Notes: generated by a model not told the origin, from the sequence alone. A stretch of 32,000 nucleotides of DNA from Ruminococcus albus 7 = DSM 20455 (GCF_000179635.2 NC_014833.1:2820001-2852000); one strand, 5' to 3'. Positions 2,136-17,426 are shown, counted from the first letter of the stretch. Numbers and translations are program-made.

Positions 2136-2196
2136 TGTAGCGCACTATTCTCTCTTTGTCAAGCGCTTTCGGAGATATGCCATAGCTTTTCGTCTT

Positions 2197-3393: not shown

Positions 3394-3536
3394 AAAAATG
3401 TCTCCTCTTTATATTTTTATTGAACCCTCTGACGAGGGAAAACAGGTACGCAAAAGGCTTGATGCCTTTGCTATACGAGCGCCCTTGATGGGCTTTGATT
3501 GGCTTGCAACGATACAGTGGTGATCGGCAAACCAAA

Positions 3537-3630
3537 CAGCGCGGAGCGCTGAGATTTACTTGCGGTGCGCCGCCAGTAACCCCAAATCACTTTTGACAGC
3601 CTATACAGTCCATCAAAAATGATATTGGGG
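3537..3630. promoter_or_regulatory. Candidate oriT / structured region upstream of mob
   Basis: Lies in the 369-bp non-coding gap between the CHC2 gene and mob. Contains the palindrome CAGCGC-GGA-GCGCTG (3537-3551) and an imperfect IR CCCCAAATCACTTTT (3580-3594) / AAAAATGATATTGGGG (3615-3630). Confidence 0.3.
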
Positions 3631-3762
3631 CTCTGCGAGGCTTTTATCGGCTGACGGAGCAGCCGAAATTGTGGGTACGGTTATTCAAAATCGCACCCAT
3701 GAGAGTTGCGAAAAAACGCATTACAATTTTGAAGAAATACCATATCGGAAACGATGTTTTTT

Positions 3763-4350
3763 TCAAAAATCAGCACTCATATTTTTCTGAAAATCTGCTA
3801 TCTGATTTACGATATTTTTCATGGAAAGCCGACCTGCTTTATTGAAGTTTATGAACTCCCAGCAGAGGTACTCCGCATAGTCCAAATGATGCAGGGAATA
3901 CACAAATCTTTCGTCAGGAATTTCATCGGGTGACGCAGGAGCAAATTCTCTCCATTCACGCATCAGCCACAGGTAATCGTTAAGTGTCCGCCAAGCGGAC
4001 TTTTCCCATTCTTCATAGGCTCGTTTTTCCTGAACACGCTTCTGATATTCGGACACTTCTTTCGCAGCCGGAGCTTTACCGATCTCGATATTCAGACCGA
4101 AGTCCTCATTCAGCTTTTTTACTGCATCAATGGGCTTATCGAGCCCGAACATTTTCTGTGTGAATCCGATAACATCAACGTGTGTTCCGCAGCCGAAGCA
4201 ATGCAGAGCATCGGGATAGATTTTTGCAGAGGGAGTACGCTCATTGTGAAAGGGACAAAGTGCCATACCGCCACGGGATATTTCAAGACCATATCCCTCC
4301 GCCACTGTTCTCATATCAATAGCAGATTTTACTTGCTCGAATACGGTCAC
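3763..4350 (-). CDS. CHC2 zinc-finger, DNA-primase-like protein
   Basis: CPFHNERTPSAKIYPDALHCFGCG is a CHC2 zinc finger. I chose the GTG start at 4350 (VTVFEQVKSAIDMRTV), which sits 2 nt after the stop of the upstream 72-aa ORF. The longer ORF-track start at 4428 overlaps that ORF. Confidence 0.75.
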   Translation of the reverse strand: MTVFEQVKSAIDMRTVAEGYGLEISRGGMALCPFHNERTPSAKIYPDALHCFGCGTHVDVIGFTQKMFGLDKPIDAVKKLNEDFGLNIEIGKAPAAKEVSEYQKRVQEKRAYEEWEKSAWRTLNDYLWLMREWREFAPASPDEIPDERFVYSLHHLDYAEYLCWEFINFNKAGRLSMKNIVNQIADFQKNMSADF

Positions 4351-4352
4351 GC

Positions 4353-4571
4353 TCAGAACGGGATAGAGTTGAAGAAGTCGAGAGCCGACTTGTAAATGTT
4401 CTGCTCCTGCTCGGTCAGGAAATGACACGGATCGCAGTCCTTGTTATCGGCAGCATAGAAGCCACGATAAAACAGAGTGTGGAGCATCTTGTAGTAAAGC
4501 TCCTCCTGCTCGGCATCATCGAAAGTATGGATACCATTGTTGCGGATATCGTTCTCGTTGTATTCGCACAT
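4353..4571 (-). CDS. Hypothetical 72-aa protein in the replication/mobilisation operon
   Basis: SD-like GAGGGGGGG precedes the ATG at 4571. It is tightly packed between the HTH gene and the CHC2 gene. No motif recognised. Confidence 0.5.
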   Translation of the reverse strand: MCEYNENDIRNNGIHTFDDAEQEELYYKMLHTLFYRGFYAADNKDCDPCHFLTEQEQNIYKSALDFFNSIPF

Positions 4572-4585
4572 ATTATCCCCCCCTC

Positions 4586-4876
4586 TCAGTTCTGAAAATA
4601 GTTCAGCAGGTCAGCCTTATTGACAAGAATCTTGCCACGGACACCCTCGCCTGTGCGGATATACTTGATCTTATTCTGAGCAACGAGCATACGCACGGTG
4701 TGTTCGGAAAGCCCCTCGATAAGCTCTGTACACTCCTTCACGGTGAGCATCTTCACCTTTTCAGTCTTTTTCTCGGTGGGCGCAGGAGCGTTCTCAACAG
4801 GTTCATCGTAGGCGATAGCAGTCATAAGCTCCAGTATCTGGTTCAGCATTGTCTCTTTCTGTTCTCTTGTAAGCAT
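4586..4876 (-). CDS. Excisionase-family helix-turn-helix DNA-binding protein (96 aa)
   Basis: Internal ATG at 4876 with a GAGG RBS. The C-terminal MLTVKECTELIEGLSEHTVRMLVAQNKIKYIRTGEGVRGKILVNK is the MerR/excisionase-type HTH. The long 185-aa ORF version overlaps the DUF3987 gene and was rejected. Confidence 0.8.
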   Translation of the reverse strand: MLTREQKETMLNQILELMTAIAYDEPVENAPAPTEKKTEKVKMLTVKECTELIEGLSEHTVRMLVAQNKIKYIRTGEGVRGKILVNKADLLNYFQN

Positions 4877-4976
4877 AATAAATACCTCATCTTTCTCTTT
4901 TCTCTGAGTTGTATTTTTGTGTACTATCAGCATTTTCAGCACGATCAAGTCCGAAAATGCTGATAATGTCGATCGT

Positions 4977-6611
4977 TCATATGTTGGGGTTGATAAAAAC
5001 CATGACCCCGCTTTTGTTGTTCCCATTCGCTCCCTGCACTTTCTCACGGCGGAGGTAGTTGTATTCCTCCAGCATATCCATTGTCTCAGCGAAGTCGGCT
5101 GCGTTCTTGAAAAGCGTACATCGGCAGAGCTTGTAAAGGTCATTCTGTCTGATGTTGGTTATGTGCTTGGAGCGTATCTTGTTGAGTACCCTCTCAGCTT
5201 TAATAGTGCCGAGATCAACGTCACCGAGACTGTAAGCGTAGATAGCCTGTTCACGGAAATACTCGCCTATCTCAACAGCGTTGCAGAACGTATCCAACGT
5301 AACACGGTTCTCTACGGGGTTTACGCCGTTCAATGCACACTTGATACAGTGAATGATACCGCATAGGCGGAGCAGTTCGCCGTGGTACTTACCGCCCCAG
5401 TCCTTGCAGAAAGCCATATCCGTGACAAGGTGCGGCTCGATAAAGTTGTTGTAATAGTCAACGAACTCTCCGTATGCCTTTGCATCGAAATGCAGATAAA
5501 GCTCTTTCTCGTCATGGTAGGTGAACTTAGCTCCGAGGAGCTTGTACACAAGGTTCTTGTAATTCTCAGCGACTTGCTCAGGCACAGCCTGCGTATCATA
5601 CTTTCGTGAACCGATGTTGCTGACAGGAAAACAATACATGAACCTTGCTATCAGACCGCTGCCACGAAACACAGGATTGTTTATCATACCGTCGAACACA
5701 TAAGGCTGACAGGCAAGGCAGATGCTCATGTAGGGCTTTTTCAGCACAATGCTCGCTCTGGTAGCTCGGTCGCTGATGTAGGTCTCGCCGTTCCATGATT
5801 TCAGCAGGAGATCAAGGTTAGGTACGTTGTTGCTGTAACGTCCGCTGAAATTACCGAGCATTCCGGCTTCGTCGGATATCATAAGCAGTGTGCCGTTCTC
5901 TTCGAGCAGGTTCACAAGGGATTCGGGTGTCACATCGTCCACCGCTATCCTGCGGAAGTTGCTCGCAGGGATATTGCTTATCTCCGTCTGGAGCTTGGCT
6001 ATCTCCTCAGCTGTCACATCTTTCTTCTTTTCAAGGGCTTCCAGCTTGCTCAACAGGAGCTTGCGTTCTGCCTGAGATTGAAAGATATCCTGCTTGTTGT
6101 TCTCATTCCAGTCGTGTGCAAACTGAATGTACGGACGCTTTATAAGCGACATTACAGGTGACTTCTTGAAGCTCGGCTCTGCTATGGTCAGCGTGTCAAG
6201 CACCAGAGGTTCGGTGTGGTCACGCTTGGCGGACATACGGTAAACTCCTGAAAAGCAGTAGCTCACCGCAGAGAGTATCGAAGTCCCTGCCATTGCAACG
6301 TCCGTTGATGTGGTAGTCGCTATTGCCTGCGCCATGTCTCCTATAATAGGTGGCAAAGCGTTCACAGGGAACGGCAGGAGGTTTGTCCCGTCGGGACGGA
6401 GTGGTGTGGGTTTTGCCCATTGTGTTACATTGTCCAATGAATTATCATCGTCCTTTCTGATATGATCTATAAAAGCACTTTTATGTGTATAGCGGTCAAC
6501 ATCGTCATGTTGTTCCGCTGTCAGATGTCTTTCGCATCTGACATGAACATTGTAACATTTCTTTCGGAGTGCTTGTGCGTGCATTGCGTATTTACGCAAA
6601 AGAATACGCAT
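4977..6611 (-). CDS. DUF3987 (YfjI-like) protein, replication/primase-associated protein of mobile elements
   Basis: 544 aa. The N-terminal LPFPVNALPPIIGDMAQAIATTTSTDVAMAGTSILSAVS matches the DUF3987 pattern as I remember it. The start codon is uncertain (ATG 6611 or 6584; neither has a clear SD). Confidence 0.7.
   Translation of the reverse strand: MRILLRKYAMHAQALRKKCYNVHVRCERHLTAEQHDDVDRYTHKSAFIDHIRKDDDNSLDNVTQWAKPTPLRPDGTNLLPFPVNALPPIIGDMAQAIATTTSTDVAMAGTSILSAVSYCFSGVYRMSAKRDHTEPLVLDTLTIAEPSFKKSPVMSLIKRPYIQFAHDWNENNKQDIFQSQAERKLLLSKLEALEKKKDVTAEEIAKLQTEISNIPASNFRRIAVDDVTPESLVNLLEENGTLLMISDEAGMLGNFSGRYSNNVPNLDLLLKSWNGETYISDRATRASIVLKKPYMSICLACQPYVFDGMINNPVFRGSGLIARFMYCFPVSNIGSRKYDTQAVPEQVAENYKNLVYKLLGAKFTYHDEKELYLHFDAKAYGEFVDYYNNFIEPHLVTDMAFCKDWGGKYHGELLRLCGIIHCIKCALNGVNPVENRVTLDTFCNAVEIGEYFREQAIYAYSLGDVDLGTIKAERVLNKIRSKHITNIRQNDLYKLCRCTLFKNAADFAETMDMLEEYNYLRREKVQGANGNNKSGVMVFINPNI
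6584..6599. promoter_or_regulatory. Palindromic operator-like site TTGCGTA-TT-TACGCAA (copy 2 of 3)
   Basis: Perfect 7-bp arms. It lies at the 5' end of the DUF3987 gene, in the divergent control region shared with gene 6717..7736. Confidence 0.4.
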
Positions 6612-6657
6612 AAAATTTTAGAATACGAATACAATCACGCTATAATACGCATTATAA

Positions 6658-6686
6658 TTGACAGTTTGCGTGTGATGTGCTATAAT
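6658..6686 (+). promoter_or_regulatory. Consensus sigma-A-type promoter for gene 6717..7736
   Basis: TTGACA (6658-6663), a 17-nt spacer ending in TGc, then TATAAT (6681-6686). RBS GAGGAG follows before the ATG at 6717. Confidence 0.6.
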
Positions 6687-6716
6687 GGAAGAAGATACTG
6701 AAAGCGAGGAGAGCGT

Positions 6717-7736
6717 ATGGGAACTACGACAATTTACCGTATAAACGAAACAGACCGCACGATAAATATCGCACAGTCTGTTAATGATACCGATGAAAGT
6801 GTTCATGGAGCTGTTCTGAATACAAGAACGTTCACCTTTGACGAGCTGATGAATCAGCATAAGGTTTTCTGCGAGCATACCGAGCCGTATGATGCGTTCA
6901 GGGACAGGCTCAACAGTGCCTTGCGTATTGACAGGAGCATTGATGTCAGCACCGATGATATGATTGCAAGGTTCATAGCCGAGTATGGGGAAAACATATT
7001 CTTCCGAGGATATGTGACCTCGGTCATTGAGTTTTATGATAAGGAACGGTATGTCCTGCTGAAACCGAATGACGTAGTTATCGCCAAGCTCAACAGAAGA
7101 AAGATACAGGATGAAGTTGCCCGAAAGCTCATGGACTACATGGATACGCATTTTACGCTTATGAGCAGTAATGCGTATTTCAACTGTAAGGCTAATATGG
7201 AGCATTTTATGATACAGCCTGGGCGGACGATTATTGCCGCCGACGAATACACTTATAATGTATTCCGTGAAAGCGATAACTGCCTGCTGACTATCCTTGC
7301 GGAGATCGGGCAGCTCGTTCATCATAATAAATGGACGGTCAGCGAGTGTGGCTTCTGTCACAAGCTGTTTCTCGGAACGGAAGGCGAGGTCTGCTGTCAC
7401 TCTGCTGAATGCATCGAAGCACAGAAACAGCAGAAAGAGGCTATTTACAAGGAGAATACCAAGGAATACTCTGCCGTCAAACGTGATTATGATGCCTTTG
7501 TTCGCAGATATAAGAAAACACTTGTAGAAGCAGGCATTCAAAAGTATCACCCTGCTGAGTTTGACGAGTTTATGCAGGCGAAGCAGGAGCGTATGGACGA
7601 TATGGACAAACTCAAAAAACGTCTGATACGGAACGGTCTGCCGACTAAGGAACTTATTGATCTTGGGGCAAAGTATAAGGCGGAGATAAAGGCGTTGGCT
7701 GATGAGTTAGTTGAAAGGTTTGGGAGTAAGGGGTGA
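6717..7736 (+). CDS. Hypothetical 339-aa mobile-element protein with a Cys cluster (CGFCHKLF...CCHSAEC) and a charged helical C-terminus
   Basis: Strong promoter and RBS, and a clean ORF. It resembles the conserved unknown protein usually found next to DUF3987 genes in Firmicute IMEs (possibly DUF6076), but I cannot verify that. Confidence 0.6.
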   Translation: MGTTTIYRINETDRTINIAQSVNDTDESVHGAVLNTRTFTFDELMNQHKVFCEHTEPYDAFRDRLNSALRIDRSIDVSTDDMIARFIAEYGENIFFRGYVTSVIEFYDKERYVLLKPNDVVIAKLNRRKIQDEVARKLMDYMDTHFTLMSSNAYFNCKANMEHFMIQPGRTIIAADEYTYNVFRESDNCLLTILAEIGQLVHHNKWTVSECGFCHKLFLGTEGEVCCHSAECIEAQKQQKEAIYKENTKEYSAVKRDYDAFVRRYKKTLVEAGIQKYHPAEFDEFMQAKQERMDDMDKLKKRLIRNGLPTKELIDLGAKYKAEIKALADELVERFGSKG

Positions 7737-7769
7737 ACTTTGAATTTGGTGGGGTCAGAGTTATACAAA

Positions 7770-7802
7770 AACAGGAACCGCCTTAATGAGACAGTTCCTG
7801 TT
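7770..7802. terminator. Bidirectional hairpin between convergent genes
   Basis: 9-bp stem aacaggaac / gttcctgtt with a 15-nt loop, A-rich before and T-rich after. It sits between the stop at 7736 (+) and the stop at 7811 (-). Confidence 0.5.
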
Positions 7803-7810
7803 ATTATGTA

Positions 7811-8515
7811 TCATTCTATAATTCCAGAATAATTTACAGCTTCGTCGATTTTATACATAAGCATACTTGCAAACATTAATCGGCGCATACATTCTTCCTT
7901 GGTTACTACAATAGTGTTTGTATGGGCTTTCGGATTTCTTAGAGCTGACATTGCTCCTGCCAGCATAAAGCGTGTTCCATTATGGATATTTTTGCCTGTT
8001 TCTGTGCTTCTATCACATATTTCTATGAGAGGATTATCAGAAAACACTTTGTTCATGGCGTCGTAGCCATCAGGAACATTTGAATCCCCAGGTTTAACGA
8101 TAGTATATAAATTCTTAACTCTATCATTTATCTCAATAAAAGCATCTTCAGCTGCATTTGCATAATGACCATCAAGATATAGCTGTTTGGACGATTTAAT
8201 AATACGACTATGTATCATACTCCAAATATCTTTTTTCTGGTTGTCAATATCATAATTCAAAGATTTTAATATAGCAATAATCTGTCCAAATACAGACGAA
8301 TTTAAACAACCATTATAAATAAACAGCATATCTTTCAACCGAAATAATTCGCTGCTGAAATGAGGATATTCTATTGCAATATCATATGATATTTTAGATA
8401 AATCATTCTTTATTGATGTTATTTGTCCAACAGGAATCGGTATCAAATTCCAATTGTTCTGTGATCCTATTCTCTTGAGCAGGGATAAGAGATTAGTTAT
8501 TCTTTGTGTATCCAT
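7811..8515 (-). CDS. TIGR02391 (Hypoth_Ymh)-type protein with a HEPN-like Rx4H motif
   Basis: 234 aa. The C-terminal half GHYANAAEDAFIEINDRVKNL...FMLAGAMSALRNPKAHTN fits the TIGR02391 pattern. RNPKAH is encoded at 7922-7939. The gene is AT-rich. AAGGA RBS. The start lies 14 nt after the TIR gene stop. Confidence 0.7.
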   Translation of the reverse strand: MDTQRITNLLSLLKRIGSQNNWNLIPIPVGQITSIKNDLSKISYDIAIEYPHFSSELFRLKDMLFIYNGCLNSSVFGQIIAILKSLNYDIDNQKKDIWSMIHSRIIKSSKQLYLDGHYANAAEDAFIEINDRVKNLYTIVKPGDSNVPDGYDAMNKVFSDNPLIEICDRSTETGKNIHNGTRFMLAGAMSALRNPKAHTNTIVVTKEECMRRLMFASMLMYKIDEAVNYSGIIE

Positions 8516-8529
8516 AGCACGTCCTTTTG

Positions 8530-8859
8530 TTAAAACTTTATGTCATCGGCAATTGAAGCAACATTGGAGAAATGCTGATTTATTCGATTTTCTTCAAGTT
8601 CTCTTTTTCGTTTTTCTTCTAAAATAATTGCTTGCTCTTTTTTATTTGCAGTGTTTACACATAACACTAAAGTTTCTCTATGGTAATCCCTAACCTCTTC
8701 GATAGTTGTCCCGTCTAATATTATCTTATCACCATATACAGAAGCAATTCCTGGTCTGTGCATTGTTGTAAATCTTGGAGGACTATTCCAAGTTGAAATG
8801 AAGATATTTATCCATAAGCTACTTGGTCTTTTAGAAAGGCGAAATGGAATTTTATACAA
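8530..8859 (-). pseudogene. 3' fragment of the IS-disrupted TIR/SEFIR-like gene
   Basis: The frame ...LYKIPFRLSKRP... continues exactly from fragment 9883-10487 once the IS and one TSD copy are removed. The apparent ATG at 8860-8862 is supplied by the IS terminus. Confidence 0.7.
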
Positions 8860-9882
8860 CATGGTTATCCCTTTAACACACCACAGATAATTTACAATGC
8901 TGTCCAAATAAACAGACCTCAAAACTCAGAAAATATAGTATAATAGTGACAGAAACCGAAGGGAGCTGTCGCTATGTCAAAAAGATTTCCGAAACCTGAG
9001 ATCACACTTGATGGGATATACTCAAAGTTCGCAGATGAAAGCTTTTGCAAGGATTTTCTGCTTGATATCCGCTTTGAAAAGGGTTTTGCCTGCCCGTTTT
9101 GCGGTGGCTCTGAGTACCGCAGGATAAGGTCACGCCATCTGCTGCGATGCAAGTTCTGTAAAGCAGATATATCCGCCACAAACGGAACTTTTATGCACAG
9201 AACACATATTCCGCTCAGACTGTGGATAGTCACCGCATTCCTCATTATGAGCAACAAATGCAGCGTTTCTGCTGTTACGCTGATGAGGTCTTTGGGGGTG
9301 ACCTACAAGACTGCATGGTACATCCTTCATCGCATCAGAAAAGCTATGAAATGCCGTGAAGAACGCTATTTGCTTGACGGGATCGTTGAACTTGATGACA
9401 CGTATCTCGGTGCTCCGACTCACGGTAAAAAGCGTGGCAGAGGAACTGAAAAAGTCAAGATGATAGTAGCTTTGTCAAAGAACGCAGCAGGAAATCCCGA
9501 GTACGTTAAAATGAGCGATGTGCCGAATTTAAAGGGTATAACTGTTGGTAGATTTGCCAGGGATAATATCCGCGCAGGCTCGAAGATCGAGAGTGATAAT
9601 GCTCGAAGTTACAAGAAACCGTTGGCACAGAAATACTTCCATGTTTTTGAAACATATGATCCGACAAGCGGTCAGCTGAACTGGATGCATAAAGTTATAT
9701 CAAACTTCAAAGCAATGATCATGGGAACTTACCACGGAAACGAAAAGATCCACACAGCGTTATATGCTGCCGAATACTGCTACAAATTCAACCGTCGTAA
9801 GCTGGGAAACAGTGCGTATTTAAGGCTTTTGGCTGCTTTGGTGCAGTGATCTTACTTGTGGTGTGTTAAAGGGATAACCATA
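8860..9882 (+). mobile_element. IS1595-family insertion sequence, copy 1 (1023 bp)
   Basis: Perfect 24-bp terminal inverted repeats ATGGTTATCCCTTTAACACACCAC. 8-bp target duplication TTATACAA at 8852-8859 and 9883-9890. The sequence appears identical to copy 2. Confidence 0.9.
8974..9849 (+). CDS. IS1595-family transposase (zinc ribbon + DDE)
   Basis: 291 aa. CPFCGGSEYRRIRSRHLLRCKFC is the zinc ribbon and VELDDTYLG is the DDE region. Confidence 0.9.
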   Translation: MSKRFPKPEITLDGIYSKFADESFCKDFLLDIRFEKGFACPFCGGSEYRRIRSRHLLRCKFCKADISATNGTFMHRTHIPLRLWIVTAFLIMSNKCSVSAVTLMRSLGVTYKTAWYILHRIRKAMKCREERYLLDGIVELDDTYLGAPTHGKKRGRGTEKVKMIVALSKNAAGNPEYVKMSDVPNLKGITVGRFARDNIRAGSKIESDNARSYKKPLAQKYFHVFETYDPTSGQLNWMHKVISNFKAMIMGTYHGNEKIHTALYAAEYCYKFNRRKLGNSAYLRLLAALVQ

Positions 9883-10487
9883 TTATACAATGCACATCCA
9901 CGAGTACCATCCATTCGTGGCACGGTTACCTCATCGGTTATAATACCAAGAATATGAATCGGTTCATCTGGAGAAGAAGGACTAAGCTGTGGTGCAGCCT
10001 GGGCAACATAAGAAGGAACACGACCTATTTTAGGCTTCATTTTCACTCCATAAATGGTTGTGATCAAATCTTTGTAGTTATTCTCAAAATGAATAGAATC
10101 TGTCAAATCAATACCAAGCTTTCCAGCCAAAAACGTAGGCATAGCTGCATTAAATGATCCTTTACGCACCACAGGGATAAACTTACGTTCATTTCCTTTT
10201 GAGTATAGTTCCTCTGTTATAATATGACCTTCATATCCAACCCCACCTTTTCGATTATCGGCTTTTTCCTTATACAGTGGTGTACAGATAATGAGGACGT
10301 AATCGGCAGTTGTAATCGACTGTTCCATAAAATGTGGAAGTCTATCGCCTAAAGATGCGTCATACTGATCAACGGTTGCATCAATTCCATCGGCTAATAG
10401 TTTGTCAGCAAATTCTCGCACCCATTGTTGATGTGCATCTTCTTCCCATGAATATGATATAAATGCTTTAGGATGCTGTTTACTCAT
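9883..10487 (-). pseudogene. 5' fragment of the TIR/SEFIR-like gene, truncated by IS1595
   Basis: KAFISYSWEEDAHQQWVREFADKLLADGIDATVDQYD...YVLIICTPLYKEK...GGVGYEGHII is a TIR/SEFIR-type N-terminal domain. The ATG at 10487 overlaps the upstream stop as ATGA, with GGAGG 7 nt upstream. The present ORF reads into the IS and stops at 9852. Confidence 0.75.
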
Positions 10488-11308
10488 ATACAATCCTCCG
10501 CCTTAAAACCTTTATAGCTTCCAAATCCTAACATATAAACCGCCATAGCCACAGCAAGATTCTCATTGTTGAGATTCTGTTTCTTAGCAAGCTCCTTCAG
10601 CTCATCAATAACAGTATCGTGTGGAACGATAGAGCCTTCAAGCTCGTCCACAGCCTTCTGAATGATAGACGGCAGCACCATACACATCTGATAGAAAGCA
10701 TCTTCCTGTCCGGTTACAAGAGCATAGAACTGGTCGAGGCTCACACGGCGTATCAGCTTGTGACCGACCTTTTTCTTGTCAACGGTAGTCTCCCATTTTA
10801 TATTCTGCGATCTCTGAGCAATAGCTTCAACAAGAAAACAAGCACAATCATCATCGGTGAGAAGCTGGTTCTGCATCTTAATAAAAGTCTTACCTGCCGA
10901 TGCAGAATTCATGGTGTTGTGCTTGTTTTTCATCTCGACATACACAGTATGTACGCTGATTCCATCTGTAACAACAATGCCATCAGGATTTTCAAAGATA
11001 ACGTCCCAGCCGCCCTCTTTTCCGTTATCGGGAACACGACAGTTAGCAATGTACTGGAATATGCGCTGGTGGAAATAGCCTATATCGTTGTTATTGGACT
11101 TATCACGCTGACGGAAAATCTCGTTGCATACGATCTCCTCCCATGATGCCTGGTAGACAGTTTTATCAAAAATCAACTTGATAGGATCAATAATATTCTT
11201 GTTGAAACGCTTCAAATCGAAAGATTCAAGCTTTTCGCCATACTTCTCTATGGTTTTCTTAACGTGCTTTGTAAAGTCTTCTTCGCTGATGAAACTAAGT
11301 GTCCACAT
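10484..11308 (-). CDS. Type II restriction endonuclease, Eco47II-family-like
   Basis: 274 aa. FISEEDF...NIIDP...IGYFHQRIF...WDV...VEMKNKHNTMNSASAG...LDQFYALVTG matches my recollection of RE_Eco47II (GGNCC enzymes). It is coupled to the adjacent m5C methyltransferase. Confidence 0.6.
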   Translation of the reverse strand: MWTLSFISEEDFTKHVKKTIEKYGEKLESFDLKRFNKNIIDPIKLIFDKTVYQASWEEIVCNEIFRQRDKSNNNDIGYFHQRIFQYIANCRVPDNGKEGGWDVIFENPDGIVVTDGISVHTVYVEMKNKHNTMNSASAGKTFIKMQNQLLTDDDCACFLVEAIAQRSQNIKWETTVDKKKVGHKLIRRVSLDQFYALVTGQEDAFYQMCMVLPSIIQKAVDELEGSIVPHDTVIDELKELAKKQNLNNENLAVAMAVYMLGFGSYKGFKAEDCI

Positions 11309-12531
11309 TATGATAATCCCTCCAGTGCGATTCTTATCTGCTTTGCTATATCCATTGCAAGATTGACAGGAACGGCATTGCCGACCTGCTTATACTGAGA
11401 ACCTATACTTCCGCAGAACTGCCATTCATCAGGGAAACTCTGACAACGGGCATTTTCACGGATAGTAAACGGACGGGGTTCAAGCGGATGACAGCGATCT
11501 GTCTGCTTCTGGCTAGGTGAAGTCAAAACGGTAAGCGACGGTTCGTCAAGGCTGAGCCTGCGGAGAATGCCTGTCCTTCCGCCTTCCATGTACCAACAGC
11601 TTTTCATATACTCTTTCGCTATATCCTCGGGAATATCTCTCCAGTATCCACCCGGAGGAACAAGCTCAAATATCTTACGCTTGTATTCCGAATATGGTGT
11701 ACCCTCGCTTTTCGGACAGTCAAGCAGCACATCACGCAGAACTGGCTTGTACTCATGTGGTGTGGGGAAACTGAAACTGATCTTGTCAGTCAGATTGTTT
11801 CTGATGCCTATGGTTATCAGACGTTCACGCTTCTGAGCAACACCATAGTCCCAAGCATTCAGAACCTTCTTCTGAATGGTGTAGCCTGTACTTTCAAATA
11901 TATCAAGAATTGTTTTGTAAGTTCTTCCCTTATCATGAGTCAGCAGACCACGAACGTTCTCAAAAAGAAACATTTTAGGCTGGAGCTGTTCAAGGAACTT
12001 TGCGTAATGATAGAAAAGTGTTCCACGAGCATCTTCAAGACCGAGCCGTTTTCCTGCATAAGAGAAGCTCTGACAAGGTGCGCCACCCGAAAGCAGATCA
12101 AGCTCACCCTTCTTCAAACCGAAGTAATCTTGCAGGTCAAGACAAGAGATATTGGCAATATCATCATTGATAACTCTCCATTCAGGTCTGTTTCTGCGGA
12201 GTGTATCAGATGCGTCCTTGTCCACCTCTACAAGACCGAGCGTTATAAACCCAGCTTTCTCAACACCGAGAGCAAGCCCGCCTGCACCAGCGAATAATTC
12301 TATCGTAGAGAAGGTTCGCTGTTCTTTCTTAGTTGTAATATCCATAATATCACCGATATTGCAGTTCAGCACCATACATATCTTTTCAAGGCTTTCAAGG
12401 GAAACAGTTTCATTCTTTCCCATTCGAGCCATGACATTAAAGCTGACACCTGATGCTTCTTTCAGTTCGGTTTTATTCATGCCCTTATCAATCAGTAATT
12501 TCCATAGATTATTGTAGCTTACTGCCACCAT
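11308..12531 (-). CDS. DNA (cytosine-5) methyltransferase with an N-terminal XRE-type HTH domain
   Basis: 407 aa. The first ~65 aa (LWKLLIDKGMNKTELKEASGVSFNVMARM) are an HTH. m5C motifs then follow: FAGAGG (I), GGAPCQSFS (IV), ENV (VI), QKRER (VIII) and GNAVPV (X). The stop overlaps the REase start as TAATG. Confidence 0.9.
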   Translation of the reverse strand: MVAVSYNNLWKLLIDKGMNKTELKEASGVSFNVMARMGKNETVSLESLEKICMVLNCNIGDIMDITTKKEQRTFSTIELFAGAGGLALGVEKAGFITLGLVEVDKDASDTLRRNRPEWRVINDDIANISCLDLQDYFGLKKGELDLLSGGAPCQSFSYAGKRLGLEDARGTLFYHYAKFLEQLQPKMFLFENVRGLLTHDKGRTYKTILDIFESTGYTIQKKVLNAWDYGVAQKRERLITIGIRNNLTDKISFSFPTPHEYKPVLRDVLLDCPKSEGTPYSEYKRKIFELVPPGGYWRDIPEDIAKEYMKSCWYMEGGRTGILRRLSLDEPSLTVLTSPSQKQTDRCHPLEPRPFTIRENARCQSFPDEWQFCGSIGSQYKQVGNAVPVNLAMDIAKQIRIALEGLS

Positions 12532-12577
12532 ATTTCATTCCTTCCTGTATCCTGTGATACAATAATGGGTTATGATT

Positions 12578-12606
12578 ATTATACCACTAAGTAACGAAAA
12601 AGTCAA
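12578..12606 (-). promoter_or_regulatory. Consensus promoter for the M-R-TIR-HEPN operon
   Basis: On the minus strand: TTGACT (12606-12601), a 17-nt spacer ending in TGg, then TATAAT (12583-12578). Confidence 0.6.
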
Positions 12607-12659
12607 TCTATCTCACGAAAACGTTAGATAATCTTTTTATCAAAAGAAATAGATTGACA
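12601..12659. promoter_or_regulatory. Inverted repeat AGTCAATCTAT / ATAGATTGACA embedding both divergent -35 boxes; candidate operator
   Basis: 10 of 11 matching arms at 12601-12611 and 12649-12659. Each arm contains the -35 hexamer of one of the two divergent promoters. Confidence 0.45.
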
Positions 12660-12682
12660 TAATGGATTGTTTGTGCTATAAT
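12654..12682 (+). promoter_or_regulatory. Consensus extended -10 promoter for the small-peptide / 518-aa gene pair
   Basis: TTGACA (12654-12659), a 17-nt spacer, then TGcTATAAT (12674-12682). Confidence 0.65.
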
Positions 12683-12754
12683 ATACATGGTGTTGGGCAG
12701 ATAAAGTACTACTCTTATTTTATTCTCGGGCTTACCCAGAAAGGAGGTAGTACA

Positions 12755-12859
12755 ATGAAGAAATTCAATGCTGTCCTTGCTGTGGCTGAAAAGACTGCTA
12801 TGGTGATTGATGTAATCGTTCCCGCAGTTCGTAAGGTGATTTCCATTATCGAGAAATAA
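12755..12859 (+). CDS. 34-aa hydrophobic/amphipathic peptide MKKFNAVLAVAEKTAMVIDVIVPAVRKVISIIEK
   Basis: Near-perfect RBS AAAGGAGG lies 7 nt upstream of the ATG at 12755. It is downstream of a consensus promoter and followed by a terminator hairpin. Confidence 0.5.
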   Translation: MKKFNAVLAVAEKTAMVIDVIVPAVRKVISIIEK

Positions 12860-12879
12860 TCTTACCCACGCAACACTAG

Positions 12880-12916
12880 CAGCGCATTTCTTATGATTTG
12901 CGCTGTTTTCTTTTTT
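12880..12916 (+). terminator. Intrinsic terminator/attenuator between the peptide ORF and the 518-aa gene
   Basis: Stem cagcgca / tgcgctg (12880-12886 / 12899-12905), a 12-nt loop, then the T-tract ttttctttttt. The RBS GAGGAGGA of the next gene starts directly after the T-tract. Confidence 0.6.
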
Positions 12917-12929
12917 GAGGAGGAAGTGT

Positions 12930-14486
12930 ATGAAGAAGGAACAACTTACTGAAATTCTTGATGATAACATTAAAACCTATATCAATAATATAGCTTATGA
13001 ACTCGAACAATCGCATGACTATTGTTTTGATGGTTTTGGCTTTCCTATATTCGGAGAAACATCCAAAGAATATCATGAGCAAGTGTACTTTGAATCATAT
13101 TTTGAATCGTACACAAGAAAACTAATAAATGGCGTTTTAGAAGAATTATGCTACTATGAGTGTGCTGATAAAATTGTATGGCCCGAATTTGAATATGTTG
13201 GAAATTACAATGGCTATACGAACATCGAGAGTGAAGAAAAGTTTGGATTTGAATTCATTAATGTTGATAGAAAAATTGGATATCGCTACACAAGAGTAAA
13301 AATCAATGAAATCGAATCTTTACTGAAAAAAGAAAAAGTTGAGAAAATAGTGTGTGTTGAGTGGCAGAATAAAGATGATATTATTGGTTTATCTTATGGT
13401 GATAAACCTGTAGAAATAATACTTTTGTGGGATTTGTTTAACGAGCTATTCGATGATATAGCTATAGACGAACTTAAGGAAATGTATAATATTTTTGTAA
13501 AAAGAATATCAGATGCAGTAGCTAAAGCAAACTCAATGATATCACTCATAACTTTACCTGGATTTACTCCTAACTATATATCTCATACTAGGAATATAAC
13601 TATATCTGTAATCAGAAAAGAAATATCTTCCTTATCTCATTACAATGTAATGAATGCCGATTTTAAGAGGCTTGAAAAGGTTTCTGCAAATCTAATAACC
13701 AAGTATAAGCTTTCAGAATACTTCTTAAATAGTCAGTATGATTTACTGCTTACTGGTAATTCTGATTATGCGAAAAGTTTTTCAACTTCAGAGTATCTAT
13801 ATAAATACTTCAAGAATAATCCAATGTTTGATTATACACCAATTGTAAGTAGCTATCTTAAATCAATTGAGCAGTTGCTTAATTATATATGTAGCAATTA
13901 TGCATCATTGAGTAATAATACAACCGATATCAGTGCTTTTACGCTAGGAAAATATATCACATACATGAATCAAGCTGTAAATGATACCATTTTTAGATTG
14001 GATATTCGTCCAGTCAAAGGCATCATCTATAGATGCTTAAATAGTTATAGAATCGAATGCAGAAATAATCTATTTCACAAAGACTTTTTCAATAACTGGA
14101 ATAGAGTAGAAATTATAAGAACAAATACACTTTTCTTATATGTTGCTATTCTAGGAAGTATTAATCCAGTTCTTATCAAATACGATGAGGGTATATTGAA
14201 TTTACAATATGATGAACTTTTCAGCATCCTTGATAAACAAAGAAATAATCGATTTTTACTTATAATTAATGGTGTAGAATACTCAGGAATGAATATAGAA
14301 CCTCGTAACGAAGGGATTGCATATATTGAAAGTGGACTTATAAATAATTCTATAGTATTTAAAAGATTCAATCATGATCATTACGATAGAATTGAATTGA
14401 CCAGAGATAATATGCCATCGGAAATTTGGATTATAGATTCATTCGGTACTAAGGAGAAAAGAATATGGCCTTTACTAAAAAAATAA
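12930..14486 (+). CDS. 518-aa AT-rich hypothetical protein with a HEPN-like Rx4H motif (candidate abortive-infection effector)
   Basis: RBS GAGGAGGA precedes the ATG at 12930. CLNSYRIECRNNLFHKDFF (RNNLFH at 14061-14078) sits in a helical region resembling Abi_2/DUF4145-type HEPN domains. The N-terminal ~250 aa are unassigned. Confidence 0.6.
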   Translation: MKKEQLTEILDDNIKTYINNIAYELEQSHDYCFDGFGFPIFGETSKEYHEQVYFESYFESYTRKLINGVLEELCYYECADKIVWPEFEYVGNYNGYTNIESEEKFGFEFINVDRKIGYRYTRVKINEIESLLKKEKVEKIVCVEWQNKDDIIGLSYGDKPVEIILLWDLFNELFDDIAIDELKEMYNIFVKRISDAVAKANSMISLITLPGFTPNYISHTRNITISVIRKEISSLSHYNVMNADFKRLEKVSANLITKYKLSEYFLNSQYDLLLTGNSDYAKSFSTSEYLYKYFKNNPMFDYTPIVSSYLKSIEQLLNYICSNYASLSNNTTDISAFTLGKYITYMNQAVNDTIFRLDIRPVKGIIYRCLNSYRIECRNNLFHKDFFNNWNRVEIIRTNTLFLYVAILGSINPVLIKYDEGILNLQYDELFSILDKQRNNRFLLIINGVEYSGMNIEPRNEGIAYIESGLINNSIVFKRFNHDHYDRIELTRDNMPSEIWIIDSFGTKEKRIWPLLKK

Positions 14487-14937: not shown

Positions 14938-15249
14938 TCACACCTCCTCATTTCCGCTGAAATAAGACAGCAGGCTTTCCTTGTTGACGAGATATTTACC
15001 ACGGACACCCTCACCTGTGCGGAACGCTTTGATTTTGCCTTGTGCTATCAGCATACGGATAGAGTGTTCTGAGATACCTTCGATCAGCTCGGTACACTCC
15101 TTGATAGTCATCATTCTGACCGACTGTGCAGGAGCTTTAGTTGCTGTTGATACTGATGCAGGCTGTTCCTGCACATCTTCCTCGGCGGTCAGTTGAAGTA
15201 AAAGATTGATGATGGTGTTTACGATCTCACGTTTTTCTGCTATTGTCAT
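14938..15249 (-). CDS. Excisionase-family HTH DNA-binding protein (103 aa), paralog of 4586..4876
   Basis: ATG at 15249 with an AAGGAAG RBS. MTIKECTELIEGISEHSIRMLIAQGKIKAFRTGEGVRGKYLVNK is nearly colinear with the other HTH protein. Confidence 0.8.
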   Translation of the reverse strand: MTIAEKREIVNTIINLLLQLTAEEDVQEQPASVSTATKAPAQSVRMMTIKECTELIEGISEHSIRMLIAQGKIKAFRTGEGVRGKYLVNKESLLSYFSGNEEV

Positions 15250-15441: not shown

Positions 15442-15521
15442 ATTTTCTAAAGATAATAGTAATTTAATGCAAGATGCCTGAATACCCTTTCCGGGTTAGC
15501 CGAACATTCGGGGTTAACTCG

Positions 15522-15534
15522 AAGAGATAATCAG
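15522..15534. repeat. 13-bp direct repeat AAGAGATAATCAG, candidate attR core
   Basis: Exact copy of 827-839. Confidence 0.35.
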
Positions 15535-15780: not shown

Positions 15781-16074
15781 TTATTCATCGCCATTGAATT
15801 TGAGATTTTTATCTACATACCTGATCATGTCCTTGTATTCGATCTCAGCTTTCTTCAGTTTGATCGACATCAGAAAATGCAGGAATGCATTAGTCTTTTC
15901 AGACTGATACGACTCAGCCTGAAATATGTTATTGCATTTTGTGCAGGCAAGACTGGGTTCATGCTTTATCGTGAATTCATTCCTGTGACCTTGAAATGTA
16001 TGGATCGAGGTCTCACTTATCTCGAGTTTCAGCGGTGCATTGCAGTAACAGCATTTGTCAAATACTTCTTTCAT
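15781..16074 (-). CDS. 97-aa zinc-ribbon-like protein (CCYC ... CTKC), a fourth ORF inside the IS66 element
   Basis: The ATG at 16074 overlaps the tnpC stop as ATGA (16071-16074). It lies inside the IS66 terminal IR. Confidence 0.5.
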   Translation of the reverse strand: MKEVFDKCCYCNAPLKLEISETSIHTFQGHRNEFTIKHEPSLACTKCNNIFQAESYQSEKTNAFLHFLMSIKLKKAEIEYKDMIRYVDKNLKFNGDE

Positions 16075-17426
16075 TTTTCTTCCCTCCATGGTAATAATAT
16101 CGTTCCTGCCGGCTGTGAAAACAGCTCTGTCAGATATTTTTCCGCATCAAGACCATTTGCCTGTGCGGTTGAAATGATCGAGTACAGCACTGCACTTGCT
16201 TTTGCACCGTTTGCTGTGTTGCTGAAAAGCCAGTTTTTTCTCCCGACTGCAAATGGGCGGATAGCATTCTCGGCTCTGTTATTGTCGATCGGAATATCAC
16301 CATTTTCGAGAAATGTGTAAAGATATTTCCGCTCGTTCAGAGCATACCTCACTGCATCTGTCAGCTTGCCCTTACCGCTGACCTGAACATTTTCAAGCCA
16401 CGCAAAAAACTCGTCAAGCAAAGGCTTTACCTTCACAAGGCGCTGTTCATATCTGTATTCTGCGGAGCTGTCGGCAAGCAGACTTTCTTCGTGATATATC
16501 CTGTTGCAAAAAGCAACCGCCTTTGCTGCGACAGAAGTACTGTAAGCTGACTTGTCTTTCGGCAGACACTCTACAAAATGTCGTCTGTTATGAGTCCAGC
16601 AGCCACATCTTTTTGCACCTTCGACTGCATTGTAAGCATCGTATCCGTCGCAGATAAGATATCCGATAAAGCCTTTCAGGAAATTCGAGGCGTGCTCACC
16701 TTTTCTTGTCGGTCGGTAATCGAAAATGATGATGCTCCTGTCATTCATTTTGCCGTTGCAGTAGACCCACATTCTTGATGTCGTGGTAGGCTTTCTGCCT
16801 TCCTCGTGCAGTACCTGAACTGTTGTCTCGTCGGCGTGGATGATCTGCCCCGAGATAAGCATCTCGTGCATCTTCTCTACAATAGGCATACACCATTTTT
16901 CAGCAGCCATAATCACCCAATTTGACATGGTCGCTTTGAGCAGAGGTATCTTCTTTGAATTAAAGTCCTTTTCCTGACGGTGCAGAGGTACTGATTTTGC
17001 ATATTTTTCGTAGATGATATGTGCCAGAAGTTCGGGAGAGCAATAGCTTCCCGGGATCATAGCATGAGGATAGGTTGCACGAACGATATGACAGTTTTCG
17101 TCTCTTTCTTCGGGCTTTTCTCCGCACTCGGGACACTTGTATTTATGTACGATATGCCTGCGGATATGAAACTTGGCAGGAGTATATACAAGTTCATCGT
17201 AAGCCTTTTCTGTACCGATATCTTTCATTTCGGCACTGCATATTTCACATACGGGAGCTTCTATCTCATGATGTTCCTCTTTGATCTTAAGACTACTCAT
17301 CCAATCATCGTGAGTGCGCTTTTTCTTGCGCTTGTATTCGGGAATGGTGACAGTTTCTTTTGGTATTGATTTTTCTTCGTTATTTCCGAACATCGAAAGC
17401 TGAACACCAAATTCCTTCTCCATCAC
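16071..17426 (-). pseudogene. tnpC: IS66 transposase TnpC, C-terminal ~450 aa (split by IS21)
   Basis: Zinc-finger region CEICSAEM...CPECG and DDE region ADETTVQV...DGYDAY...NNRAENAIRP. It joins in frame with 24260-24410 to give 499 aa. Confidence 0.9.

What the first reader, a model, noticed from the sequence alone, without database searches (positions are those of the whole stretch)
7811..12531. Type II R-M pair translationally coupled to a TIR/SEFIR-like gene and a HEPN (TIGR02391) gene: candidate composite defence operon
Seen in sequence:
- Four same-strand genes have almost no spacing.
- The MTase stop and REase start overlap as TAATG (11306-11310).
- The REase stop and TIR start overlap as ATGA (10484-10487), with GGAGG 7 nt upstream.
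- The TIR stop and HEPN start are 14 nt apart, with an AAGGA RBS.
- I see one consensus promoter upstream (12578-12606), no hairpin plus T-tract inside the cluster, and a bidirectional hairpin after the last gene (7770-7802).
- Motifs: a complete m5C MTase motif set with an N-terminal HTH; an Eco47II-like REase; FISYSWEED...GGVGYEGH (TIR/SEFIR type); and RNPKAH (Rx4H) in the last protein.

Established knowledge: TIR/SEFIR domains act as NAD-consuming effectors and HEPN domains as RNases in abortive-infection systems. R-M systems are first-line immunity.

Inference: the two layers are wired into one transcription/translation unit carried as cargo of a mobilisable element. I do not know of a described system with this architecture. 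The distal genes look more AT-rich than M and R, which suggests modular accretion.
Basis: partly seen in the sequence, partly recalled or inferred. Interest (0 to 1): 0.8.

Follow-up and report, generated by a model that had tools for sequence, protein, structure and literature searches.

The report
R-M operon with SEFIR and HEPN
A restriction-modification gene pair shares one promoter with two suicide-type anti-phage genes (a SEFIR NAD-depleting protein and a HEPN RNase-like protein) on a mobile element; the parts are all known kinds, and in this genome an insertion sequence has broken the SEFIR gene.

Summary
Four minus-strand genes sit at 7811-12531: an HTH-fused m5C methyltransferase, an Eco47II-family endonuclease, a SEFIR/TIR protein and a Ymh/TIGR02391 HEPN protein. 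The junctions, promoter and terminator are as described. However, a 1023-bp IS1595-family element (8860-9882) splits gene 3, so the operon is broken in this genome, probably Ruminococcus albus.

All four HMM assignments are supported. Gene 3 belongs to bSEFIR, a known single-gene defence family. An intact four-gene row with the same promoter recurs in other contigs at about 84% nucleotide identity, and all four genes are under purifying selection.

The row is a mosaic of three separable modules. M-R occurs alone. SEFIR occurs alone. Another cassette can replace SEFIR between R and Ymh.

Both accessory families ride on restriction operons. In 23 of 31 genome loci the gene just upstream of a full-length SEFIR homolog is a restriction or R-M gene, across seven R-M types. 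Ymh lay inside an R-M operon in six of six other look-ups.

Ymh-in-R-M operons were described in 2013. I found no paper describing the SEFIR linkage.

Verdict: real, and a new variant of a known kind. Functional coupling is untested.

The parts
12578..12606 (-). Operon promoter: TTGACT (12601-12606), 17-nt spacer, TG-extended TATAAT (12578-12586)
   Evidence: 11 of 12 positions. The -35 and -10 elements are conserved at the same distance from the M start in L001, L070, L072 and L057.
12546..12561 (-). Palindrome TGTATC-ACAG-GATACA between the -10 element and the RBS. Candidate operator for the HTH domain of the methyltransferase (inferred).
   Evidence: GTATC-N4-GATAC is kept in L001, L070 and L072 although the spacer differs. 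Binding was not tested.
11308..12531 (-). M: 407-aa m5C DNA methyltransferase with an N-terminal HTH_26 domain
   Evidence: PF00145 E 2.9e-82, covering 1-322 of 324 profile positions. PF13443 E 4.4e-17. TIGR00675 dcm E 5e-78. PADLOC MTase_II E 4.6e-131.
10484..11308 (-). R: 274-aa Eco47II-family type II restriction endonuclease. Its start overlaps the M stop by 1 nt.
   Evidence: PF09553 E 2.9e-89, covering 1-201 of 202 profile positions. PADLOC REase_II E 8e-28. GGNCC occurs 8 times against about 51 expected in the window.
9883..10487 (-). bSEFIR gene, 5' part (codons 1 to about 202). The ATG overlaps the R stop. The ORF now runs into the IS and ends at 9852.
   Evidence: RefSeq calls the truncated product a 211-aa TIR-domain protein (P0105).
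8860..9882 (+). IS1595-family insertion sequence, 1023 bp. The transposase ORF is at 8974-9849(+). Terminal inverted repeats match at 25 of 26 positions. The 8-bp target duplication TTATACAA lies at 8852-8859 and 9883-9890.
   Evidence: PF12762 E 1e-21 and PF12760 E 1.4e-10. NF033547 E 1.3e-47. An identical second copy lies at about 25383-26405 with its own duplication, TTCAATTA.
8530..8851 (-). bSEFIR gene, 3' part (conserved C-terminal domain and coiled coil). It is in frame with the 5' part once the IS and one target duplicate are removed, giving 308 aa.
   Evidence: For the repaired protein: PADLOC bSEFIR E 4.4e-77, TIR_2 E 1.4e-18, SEFIR E 5.1e-13. It is 92-93% identical to intact 308-aa homologs.
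7811..8515 (-). 234-aa Ymh/TIGR02391-family HEPN protein: an N-terminal helical domain of about 100 aa, then a C-terminal HEPN domain with R193-NPKA-H198
   Evidence: PF09509 E 2.2e-24 and TIGR02391 E 8.9e-17, both above their cut-offs. R193 to H198 are invariant in 35 homologs. It is 100% identical to an R. albus TIGR02391 protein (P0121).
7770..7802 (-). Intrinsic-terminator-like hairpin (14-bp stem, T-tract) after the last gene. It lies between convergent genes.
   Evidence: Homology to L001 ends 5 nt after the HEPN stop, so the hairpin is not part of the conserved block.

Best explanation
This is a mosaic, multi-layer defence operon carried as cargo on an integrative mobilisable element. 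In this genome it has been partly inactivated.

One sigma-70 promoter drives four genes. The promoter is probably autoregulated by the HTH domain fused to the methyltransferase.
1. An m5C methyltransferase.
2. An Eco47II-family endonuclease. Together with gene 1 it forms a type II R-M system, probably GGNCC-specific, that cuts unmodified incoming DNA.
3. A bSEFIR protein. This is a known single-gene abortive-infection effector reported to deplete NAD+.
4. A Ymh-family HEPN protein, predicted to be an RNase.

The three modules have separate evolutionary histories and can each exist without the others. I therefore think they most likely act autonomously, as first-line and back-up layers. What they share is transcription, translational coupling and horizontal transfer.

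Here a recent IS1595-family insertion splits the SEFIR gene and uncouples the HEPN gene from the promoter. The R-M pair is left intact.

Shown: gene content, junctions, conservation, modularity and the IS disruption. Inferred: single transcript, enzymatic activities, target sequence and autonomy of the layers.
For: - HMM assignments for all four proteins are above curated cut-offs.
- The best PDB match of the SEFIR model is the prokaryotic SEFIR domain 5Y8E (E 8.6e-11, 35% identity), ahead of TIR NADases.
- The HEPN Rx4H residues are invariant.
- A colinear block, running from about 100 nt upstream of M to 5 nt past the HEPN stop, is shared with L001 at 84% nucleotide identity.
- The intact four-gene row is also present in L072.
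- dN/dS against L001 is 0.056 for M, 0.021 for R, 0.091 for SEFIR and 0.067 for HEPN.
- The promoter and an operator-like palindrome are conserved.
- Modularity:
  - L057 has the same M-R and Ymh, but an m5C MTase, a GmrSD_N protein and a HEPN_MAE_28990 protein replace SEFIR.
  - SEFIR occurs alone on E. faecium plasmids and in L006.
  - M-R occurs alone on an L. iners plasmid.
  - dS is 0.42 for SEFIR against 1.0-1.8 for the other three genes.
  - The GC gradient of 0.45 to 0.33 is kept in L001.
- bSEFIR defends as a single gene and is listed as an NAD+-depleting Abi system.
- GGNCC is depleted about six-fold in the window, with no site in 1-13179.
- The IS has an 8-bp target duplication and an identical second copy.
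- An integrase, a Mob_Pre relaxase, a primase domain and DUF3987 flank the cargo.
Against: - No transcript data exist, so the single transcription unit is inferred from spacing and the lack of strong internal signals.
- The recurrence of both accessory families at the 3' end of many R-M operon types looks like more than loose defence-island clustering. It leaves room for functional dependence on R-M, which the autonomous-layers model does not require.
- GGCC is also strongly depleted (7 observed, 62 expected). The GGNCC signal is therefore not specific proof of this enzyme's target.
- The Ymh model has no structural match in the PDB, so RNase activity rests on family assignment and motif alone.
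Confidence: 0.6

Rival explanations
1. PrrC-like guard model. The SEFIR and/or Ymh proteins depend functionally on the R-M system. They are held latent by it, or they sense its failure or its products, for example anti-restriction proteins or DNA ends. They kill or arrest the cell only when restriction is evaded.
For: - In 23 of 31 genome loci the gene immediately upstream of a full-length SEFIR homolog, on the same strand, is a restriction or R-M gene. Seven types are represented: Eco47II, an Eco57I-like IIG enzyme, AlwI, Type ISP, MmeI with GmrSD_N, m5C MTase with Vsr, and type I HsdR.
- The gaps are mostly -4 to 33 nt. Downstream neighbours are unrelated to R-M.
- Ymh homologs lay inside R-M operons in six of six other look-ups.
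- PMC3710099 proposes exactly this model for R-M-linked HEPN families by analogy with PrrC-EcoprrI.
Against: - The partner R-M enzymes are biochemically unrelated, so a shared physical interaction is unlikely.
- bSEFIR protects when expressed alone in B. subtilis.
- SEFIR homologs stand alone, without R-M, on E. faecium plasmids, in L008 and in a Thoeris-like island in L012 and L081.
- In L015 and L036 SEFIR stays intact while M and R decay. In this window the reverse holds.
- The Ymh protein lacks the NTPase domain of PrrC or RloC.
- The 31 loci are phylogenetically clumped: 13 are from Collinsella.
Confidence: 0.22
2. SEFIR and Ymh form one obligate two-gene system (sensor and effector, or toxin and antitoxin) that merely sits beside this R-M pair.
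For: - Every SEFIR locus sampled at 87% identity or more has Ymh, or a remnant of its 5' end, 14-16 nt after the SEFIR stop.
- L004 and L005 keep SEFIR-Ymh intact while M and R are reduced to fragments.
Against: - No Ymh is found next to SEFIR homologs at 70% identity or less (phmmer and tblastn).
- Ymh homologs at 71% identity or less have no SEFIR neighbour.
- L070 keeps M-R-SEFIR with Ymh truncated to 17 codons.
- dS differs four-fold between the two genes.
- bSEFIR works as a single gene.
Confidence: 0.1
3. The row is a chance juxtaposition in a decaying junkyard of mobile DNA. The accessory genes have no current function, and the tight spacing is a by-product of insertion at operon ends.
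For: - The window is full of IS elements and recombinases.
- Several related loci carry a damaged copy: the IS here, Ymh truncations in L070 and L071, and M/R decay in L004, L015 and L036.
Against: - Purifying selection is strong on all four genes over dS of 0.4-1.8.
- The promoter, ribosome-binding sites and junctions are conserved.
- The intact row recurs in independent contigs with different flanks.
Confidence: 0.05

Closest known systems
bSEFIR single-gene defence system (Bacillus sp. NIO-1130; Millman et al. 2022, bioRxiv 10.1101/2022.05.11.491447; PADLOC PDLC03957)
   Same: It has an N-terminal SEFIR domain followed by a conserved downstream domain. The PADLOC bSEFIR HMM scores E 4.4e-77 over residues 1-266. 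The best structural match is the B. cereus SEFIR domain 5Y8E. The family is enriched in defence islands.
   Different: The protein here is 308 aa and covers only positions 35-285 of the 412-position profile. It is the third gene of an R-M operon rather than a stand-alone gene. In this window it is a pseudogene split by an IS.
R-M-linked HEPN families, including Ymh (PF09509), described by Anantharaman et al. 2013 (PMC3710099)
   Same: It is a Ymh-family HEPN with the Rx4H motif, encoded in an operon with R-M genes. That paper's Table 1 lists Ymh as 'in operon with R-M' and proposes multi-pronged defence.
   Different: That paper highlights Ymh fusions (paraMORC, AbiJ-NTD1, AbiTii) and does not mention a SEFIR partner. 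Here Ymh is a solo 234-aa protein that ends a type II operon. In most relatives it follows the S subunit of an N6-MTase system.
PrrC-EcoprrI (an anticodon nuclease embedded in a type Ic R-M operon) and RloC
   Same: A HEPN-type effector is encoded inside an R-M operon. The idea is that a suicide effector backs up restriction (and established knowledge).
   Different: There is no NTPase or ABC-ATPase domain. The partner is a type II R-M system, not type I. No evidence exists for masking by the R-M proteins or for activation by an anti-restriction factor.
Eco47II/Sau96I-type type II R-M systems, and m5C methyltransferases with a regulatory N-terminal HTH (for example SsoII-like; from my own knowledge)
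   Same: There is a full-length RE_Eco47II domain and a full m5C MTase, co-oriented, with overlapping stop and start codons. An HTH is fused to the MTase, and a palindrome lies between the promoter and the RBS.
   Different: Two extra defence genes are appended downstream. Specificity and autoregulation were not tested.

Membership tests
Type II R-M system, Eco47II family | Endonuclease matching RE_Eco47II over its full length | tested here: met
   PF09553 E 2.9e-89, covering 1-201 of 202 profile positions.
Type II R-M system, Eco47II family | Cognate m5C methyltransferase with the full motif set, adjacent and co-oriented | tested here: met
   PF00145 covers 1-322 of 324 positions, E 2.9e-82. 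FAGAGG, PCQ, ENV, QKRER and GNAVP are visible in the translation. The M stop and R start overlap.
Type II R-M system, Eco47II family | Avoidance of the expected target (GGNCC) in host DNA | tested here: inconclusive
   GGNCC occurs 8 times against 51 expected (z about -6). This is the lowest ratio among 16 XYNY'X' palindromes. GGCC is also depleted (7 against 62), so the signal is not specific.
Type II R-M system, Eco47II family | Cleavage and methylation activity | not testable with these tools
   Needs enzyme assays or methylome data.
bSEFIR defence family | Match to the family HMM | tested here: met
   PADLOC PDLC03957 E 4.4e-77, protein residues 1-266 against profile positions 35-285 of 412.
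bSEFIR defence family | N-terminal SEFIR hit stronger than the TIR hit (selection rule of Millman et al.) | tested here: inconclusive
   In Pfam, TIR_2 (68 bits) scores above SEFIR (50 bits). By structure, the prokaryotic SEFIR 5Y8E (E 8.6e-11) ranks well above all TIR domains (E 3.6e-5 or worse).
bSEFIR defence family | Intact gene in this genome | tested here: not met
   The ORF is split by an IS at 8860-9882. Intact 308-aa homologs exist elsewhere.
bSEFIR defence family | Phage-triggered NAD+ depletion or abortive infection | not testable with these tools
   The literature attributes this to the family. It was not tested for this clade.
HEPN superfamily, Ymh/TIGR02391 family | HMM match above the curated cut-offs | tested here: met
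   PF09509 scores 86 bits (cut-off 25). TIGR02391 scores 61.3 bits (cut-off 39.45).
HEPN superfamily, Ymh/TIGR02391 family | Conserved Rx4-6H catalytic motif | tested here: met
   R193-N-P-K-A-H198 is invariant in 35 homologs down to 52% identity.
HEPN superfamily, Ymh/TIGR02391 family | All-alpha HEPN fold | tested here: inconclusive
   The AF2 model is all-helical with pLDDT 88.5. Foldseek found no PDB match with E below 1. The PDB sequence profile search was also empty.
HEPN superfamily, Ymh/TIGR02391 family | RNase activity | not testable with these tools
   Needs biochemistry.
PrrC/RloC-type R-M-guarded anticodon nuclease | N-terminal NTPase or ABC-ATPase domain fused to the HEPN nuclease | tested here: not met
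   No ATPase domain is present. Residues 1-100 are a helical domain with no Pfam hit.
PrrC/RloC-type R-M-guarded anticodon nuclease | Gene embedded in an R-M operon | tested here: met
   Seen in the window and in six of six other Ymh look-ups.
PrrC/RloC-type R-M-guarded anticodon nuclease | Latency imposed by the R-M proteins and activation by an anti-restriction factor | not testable with these tools
   Needs genetics and biochemistry.
IS1595-family insertion sequence | DDE_Tnp_IS1595 transposase with a Zn ribbon, terminal inverted repeats and an 8-bp target duplication | tested here: met
   Two identical copies have different target duplications.
Integrative mobilisable element | Tyrosine integrase plus relaxase, with no mating-pore genes | tested here: met
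   Phage_integrase at 951-2135(-), Mob_Pre at 2197-3393(-), a CHC2 primase domain and DUF3987. No T4SS genes were seen among the window ORFs scanned.
Integrative mobilisable element | Flanking att direct repeats | tested here: inconclusive
   Only one repeat was found, matching at 15 of 16 positions (824-839 and 15519-15534). It could be chance. There is no tRNA gene in the window.

The most novel reading that the evidence does not exclude
The 308-aa bSEFIR clade, and in parallel the Ymh HEPN clade, may be dedicated add-on effectors of restriction systems. On this reading they have repeatedly been captured as the terminal, translationally coupled gene of at least seven unrelated R-M operon types. 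The reason would be that they are triggered when restriction is evaded, or by its DNA products. That would extend the PrrC-EcoprrI guard principle from tRNA cleavage to NAD+ depletion. The SEFIR-Ymh pairing seen here, and the pairing of Ymh with a nucleoside-deoxyribosyltransferase-like protein in other R-M operons (sub-threshold hits), would then reflect a recurrent combination of a nucleotide-directed effector with an RNase as the back-up layer.
Probability: 0.2. Interest if true: 0.7.

Novelty: new variant of a known kind. Interest (0 to 1): 0.45.

Why it matters
Every component is of a known kind: a type II R-M pair, bSEFIR and an R-M-linked HEPN. The window therefore does not reveal a new defence principle.

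The comparative result adds three points:
- This exact four-gene row is a conserved, selected, mobile cassette.
- SEFIR and Ymh occupy exchangeable slots behind the same M-R pair.
- bSEFIR-clade genes sit immediately downstream of restriction genes of many types. I found no paper describing this.

This gives a compact natural system for asking whether suicide effectors are merely co-inherited with R-M or are actually triggered by its failure. Intact homologs exist, and this genome supplies a natural SEFIR knockout.

Tried and rejected
- The structure search of the Ymh model against the PDB gave no match with E below 1. Sequence searches of the PDB with the Ymh profile and with the SEFIR C-terminal domain were empty. 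The sensor domains therefore remain unassigned.
- The metagenome scan with the close SEFIR homolog returned one short locus only.
- The viral-contig scan returned one full-length homolog, in a Thoeris-like context (L081), plus a Bacteroides-type family that shares only the N-terminal domain.
- I tested whether the 492-aa partner of Ymh in other R-M operons is a SEFIR/TIR relative.
  - PADLOC TIR-effector and Pfam Nuc_deoxyrib_tr hits are below the curated cut-off.
  - Profile-profile comparison with the SEFIR family gave probability 0.3.
  - I rejected it as a SEFIR relative.
- Literature searches for TIGR02391 and for bSEFIR found nothing. A search for SEFIR with HEPN found no paper on a composite system.
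- A direct-repeat search for att sites gave only one weak candidate.
- One Pfam call failed on a bad coordinate range and was rerun.
- I considered and rejected the idea that SEFIR-Ymh is simply an independent pair parked beside R-M. Of the loci with a SEFIR at 87% identity or more, those retaining their upstream sequence carry M-R or its remnants (in L071 an IS110-type element lies upstream instead). L057 also keeps M-R and Ymh without SEFIR.

Full report
**1. What is in the sequence**

On the minus strand between 12606 and 7770 there is a promoter, four genes and a terminator.

- The promoter is TTGACT-17-TATAAT with a TG extension (12606-12578). It matches 11 of 12 positions and is the best match on that strand.
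- M (11308-12531) and R (10484-11308) overlap as TAATG.
- R and gene 3 overlap as ATGA, with GGAGG 7 nt upstream.
- Gene 3 and the last gene (7811-8515) are 14 nt apart, with an AAGGA-type RBS.
- A 14-bp hairpin with a T-tract follows at 7770-7802.
- Counts of promoter-like and terminator-like sites in the region are at chance level overall (13 against 13.9, and 3 against 3.1). Consensus matching alone therefore proves little.
- The promoter is, however, conserved in orthologous loci (section 3).

The GC fraction falls along the row: 0.447, 0.421, 0.393, 0.326, 0.326. The window average is 0.429.

The important qualifier is that gene 3 is interrupted.

- A 1023-bp IS1595-family element lies at 8860-9882. 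Its transposase is at 8974-9849 on the plus strand, and its terminal inverted repeats match at 25 of 26 positions.
- It is flanked by an 8-bp target duplication, TTATACAA.
- A second, identical copy lies at about 25383-26405 with a different duplication. The insertion is therefore recent.
- Removing the IS and one duplicate restores a 308-aa ORF.

**2. What the four proteins are**

- M is an m5C methyltransferase (PF00145, E 3e-82, full length) with an N-terminal HTH_26 domain (E 4e-17).
- R is an Eco47II-family endonuclease (PF09553, E 3e-89, full length).
- The repaired gene-3 protein matches Pfam TIR_2 (1e-18) and SEFIR (5e-13). It matches the PADLOC bSEFIR model at E 4e-77 over residues 1-266.
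[quoted passage not shown] This ranks ahead of SPARTA TIR-APAZ and the TIR NADases.
  - Residues 179-305 form a conserved alpha/beta domain plus a long helix, with no identifiable relative.
- The last protein passes the curated cut-offs of PF09509 (Hypoth_Ymh) and TIGR02391.
  - Its R193-NPKA-H198 motif is invariant in 35 homologs.
  - Its model is all-helical (pLDDT 88.5) but has no PDB match.

bSEFIR is an experimentally validated single-gene defence system. Later literature lists it as an NAD+-depleting abortive-infection system. Ymh is classified as a HEPN family with the conserved motif and is annotated 'in operon with R-M' in PMC3710099.

**3. Is the four-gene row real or accidental?**

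The window is probably from Ruminococcus albus. The HEPN protein is 100% identical to an R. albus protein on a 3.69-Mb contig.

Intact 308-aa SEFIR homologs at 87-93% identity exist, and their contexts are informative.

- L001 and L072 carry the complete M-R-SEFIR-Ymh row. L002, L003, L073 and L074 are short contigs showing parts of it.
- blastn shows one colinear block shared with L001. It runs from about 100 nt upstream of the M start to 5 nt after the HEPN stop, at 84% identity.
- The -35 and -10 elements, a GTATC-N4-GATAC palindrome before the RBS, and the short junctions are conserved.
- dN/dS against L001 is 0.056, 0.021, 0.091 and 0.067 for the four genes.
- The flanks differ between loci. 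They are integrase, Mob_Pre and DUF3987 here, and MobC/NikA and VapE in L001. The block therefore moves as a unit.

Other members of the close clade are decay products of the same row.

- L070 has M-R-SEFIR with only 17 codons of Ymh left.
- L071 has an IS110-type element upstream and 36 codons of Ymh left.
- L004 and L005 keep SEFIR-Ymh, with only the HTH and fragments of R remaining about 2.7 kb upstream.

The window is one more such variant, with the IS in SEFIR.

**4. The row is a mosaic**

- L057 has the same HTH-M and Eco47II R (77% nucleotide identity) and the same Ymh (73%). Between them sit an extra m5C methyltransferase, a GmrSD_N protein (PADLOC NsnA-like) and a HEPN_MAE_28990 protein, in place of SEFIR.
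- SEFIR homologs at 70% identity or less never have Ymh beside them.
- M-R occurs alone on a Lactobacillus iners plasmid. SEFIR occurs alone beside a MazE/Doc pair on Enterococcus faecium plasmids.
- dS between the window and L001 is 0.42 for SEFIR but 1.0-1.8 for the other genes.
- The GC gradient is the same in L001.

They also argue against an obligate four-part machine.

**5. Both accessory families ride on restriction operons**

A scan of one genome per species gave 31 loci with full-length SEFIR homologs at 45-70% identity. In 23 of them the immediately upstream, same-strand gene is a restriction or R-M gene.

| Upstream gene | Loci |
|---|---|
| MmeI-type enzyme plus GmrSD_N protein | 13 Collinsella/Coriobacteriaceae loci |
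| Decayed Eco47II pair | L015, L036 |
| Eco57I-like IIG enzyme | L010, L013 |
| Dam MTase plus AlwI | L016, L032 |
| Type ISP enzyme | L018 |
| m5C MTase plus Vsr | L009, L014 |
| Type I HsdR | L035 |

- Gaps are mostly -4 to 33 nt.
- Exceptions are a Thoeris-like island (L012, L081), an AAA_21 plus HEPN_RiboL-PSP pair (L011), an HTH inside a conjugative element (L017, L030), a helicase (L033) and guaA (L008).
- Downstream neighbours are unrelated to R-M, so the association is directional.

Ymh homologs at 55-71% identity lay inside R-M operons in all six other look-ups. One locus was hsdM-hsdS-Ymh. The common arrangement was N6-MTase, S subunit, Ymh, then a 492-aa protein, then Mrr or another HEPN.

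The sample is small and phylogenetically clumped, and I had no matched null. The enrichment is therefore qualitative.

**6. Mechanism**

The best-supported reading is a layered operon of autonomous modules that share a promoter, translational coupling and horizontal transfer.

- The R-M pair cuts unmodified DNA. GGNCC occurs 8 times against about 51 expected in the window and is absent from 1-13179. GGCC is depleted too, so the target is only suggested.
- bSEFIR and the HEPN protein act as abortive-infection back-ups.
- The HTH fused to M and the conserved palindrome suggest autoregulation of the whole unit. This is inferred.
- In this genome only the R-M layer is certainly intact. The SEFIR gene is a pseudogene. 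Ymh is now 1 kb further from the promoter, behind an antisense transposase gene, and no strong outward promoter was seen.

The main rival is a PrrC-like guard relationship, proposed for R-M-linked HEPNs in PMC3710099. The pattern in section 5 keeps it alive. The diversity of R-M partners and the stand-alone activity and occurrence of SEFIR argue against it.

**7. Novelty and verdict**

- All parts belong to known families.
- The concept of HEPN effectors embedded in R-M operons is published.
- I found no paper describing a SEFIR-HEPN-R-M composite or the SEFIR-behind-restriction pattern. The literature tool covers open-access papers only.

I rate this a new variant of a known kind, of moderate interest. 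Its main value is as a compact natural system for testing whether suicide effectors are functionally coupled to restriction.

Noticed in passing
window 25383-26405: A second, sequence-identical copy of the IS1595-family element, with its own 8-bp target duplication (TTCAATTA). It lies upstream of panB/panC (26803-28537). The identity implies recent transposition in this genome.
   Followed up: partly
window 12915-14486 (+), promoter 12654-12682 (+): A 523-aa ORF with very low GC (0.295) is transcribed divergently from the operon. Its promoter, TTGACA-17-TATAAT with TG, matches 12 of 12 positions. It has no Pfam or PADLOC hit and lies outside the block shared with L001. It could be an uncharacterised defence or cargo gene.
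   Followed up: partly
window 1-32000: Besides GGNCC, GANTC (64 observed, 142 expected) and GGCC (7 observed, 62 expected) are strongly depleted. ACNGT is enriched (138 observed, 89 expected). This suggests that other restriction specificities have shaped this DNA.
   Followed up: no
window 78-698 (+): An ORF with a GmrSD_C (type IV restriction) domain and weak PADLOC HEC-06 hits lies just outside the integrase end of the element. This is another defence gene, or a fragment of one, next to the island.
   Followed up: no
window 16071-22611: A junkyard of mobile genes: an IS66 transposase (16071-17426), an rve fragment, three consecutive tyrosine recombinases (19004-21585) and a Mu-transposase C-terminal domain protein (21697-22611).
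   Followed up: no
window 824-839 and 15519-15534; 4596-4757 and 14960-15121: A direct repeat matching at 15 of 16 positions brackets the integrase-to-HTH_17 region (about 14.7 kb) and could be the att sites of the mobilisable element. There are also two diverged HTH_17 (excisionase-like) paralogs, 71% identical over 162 nt.
   Followed up: partly
L063 6719-8197; also L075, L077, L079: In the commonest Ymh context (N6-MTase, S subunit, Ymh), the next gene encodes a conserved protein of about 492 aa. It has an invariant DGNHR motif (ParB/DndB-like) and sub-threshold Nuc_deoxyrib_tr and TIR-effector hits at its C-terminus. The family has 2158 homologs. It is not related to SEFIR by profile comparison.
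   Followed up: partly
L015 446-2759; L036 6969-8900: In two species (an uncultured Eubacteriales MAG and Ligilactobacillus ruminis) the Eco47II-type M and R genes upstream of SEFIR are fragmented while SEFIR remains an intact ORF. This is the reverse of the situation in the window.
   Followed up: partly
window 12609-12620; L001 and L070 upstream of -35: A CGTGAGA box lies just upstream of the -35 element. In L001 and L070 it is part of a perfect palindrome, CTCACG-ATTA-CGTGAG. In the window and L072 only a half-site remains. It may be a second operator.
   Followed up: no
window 6717-7736 (+): A 339-aa ORF convergent with the HEPN gene has no Pfam or PADLOC hit. It overlaps a 310-aa ORF on the opposite strand, so which one is the real gene is unresolved.
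   Followed up: no
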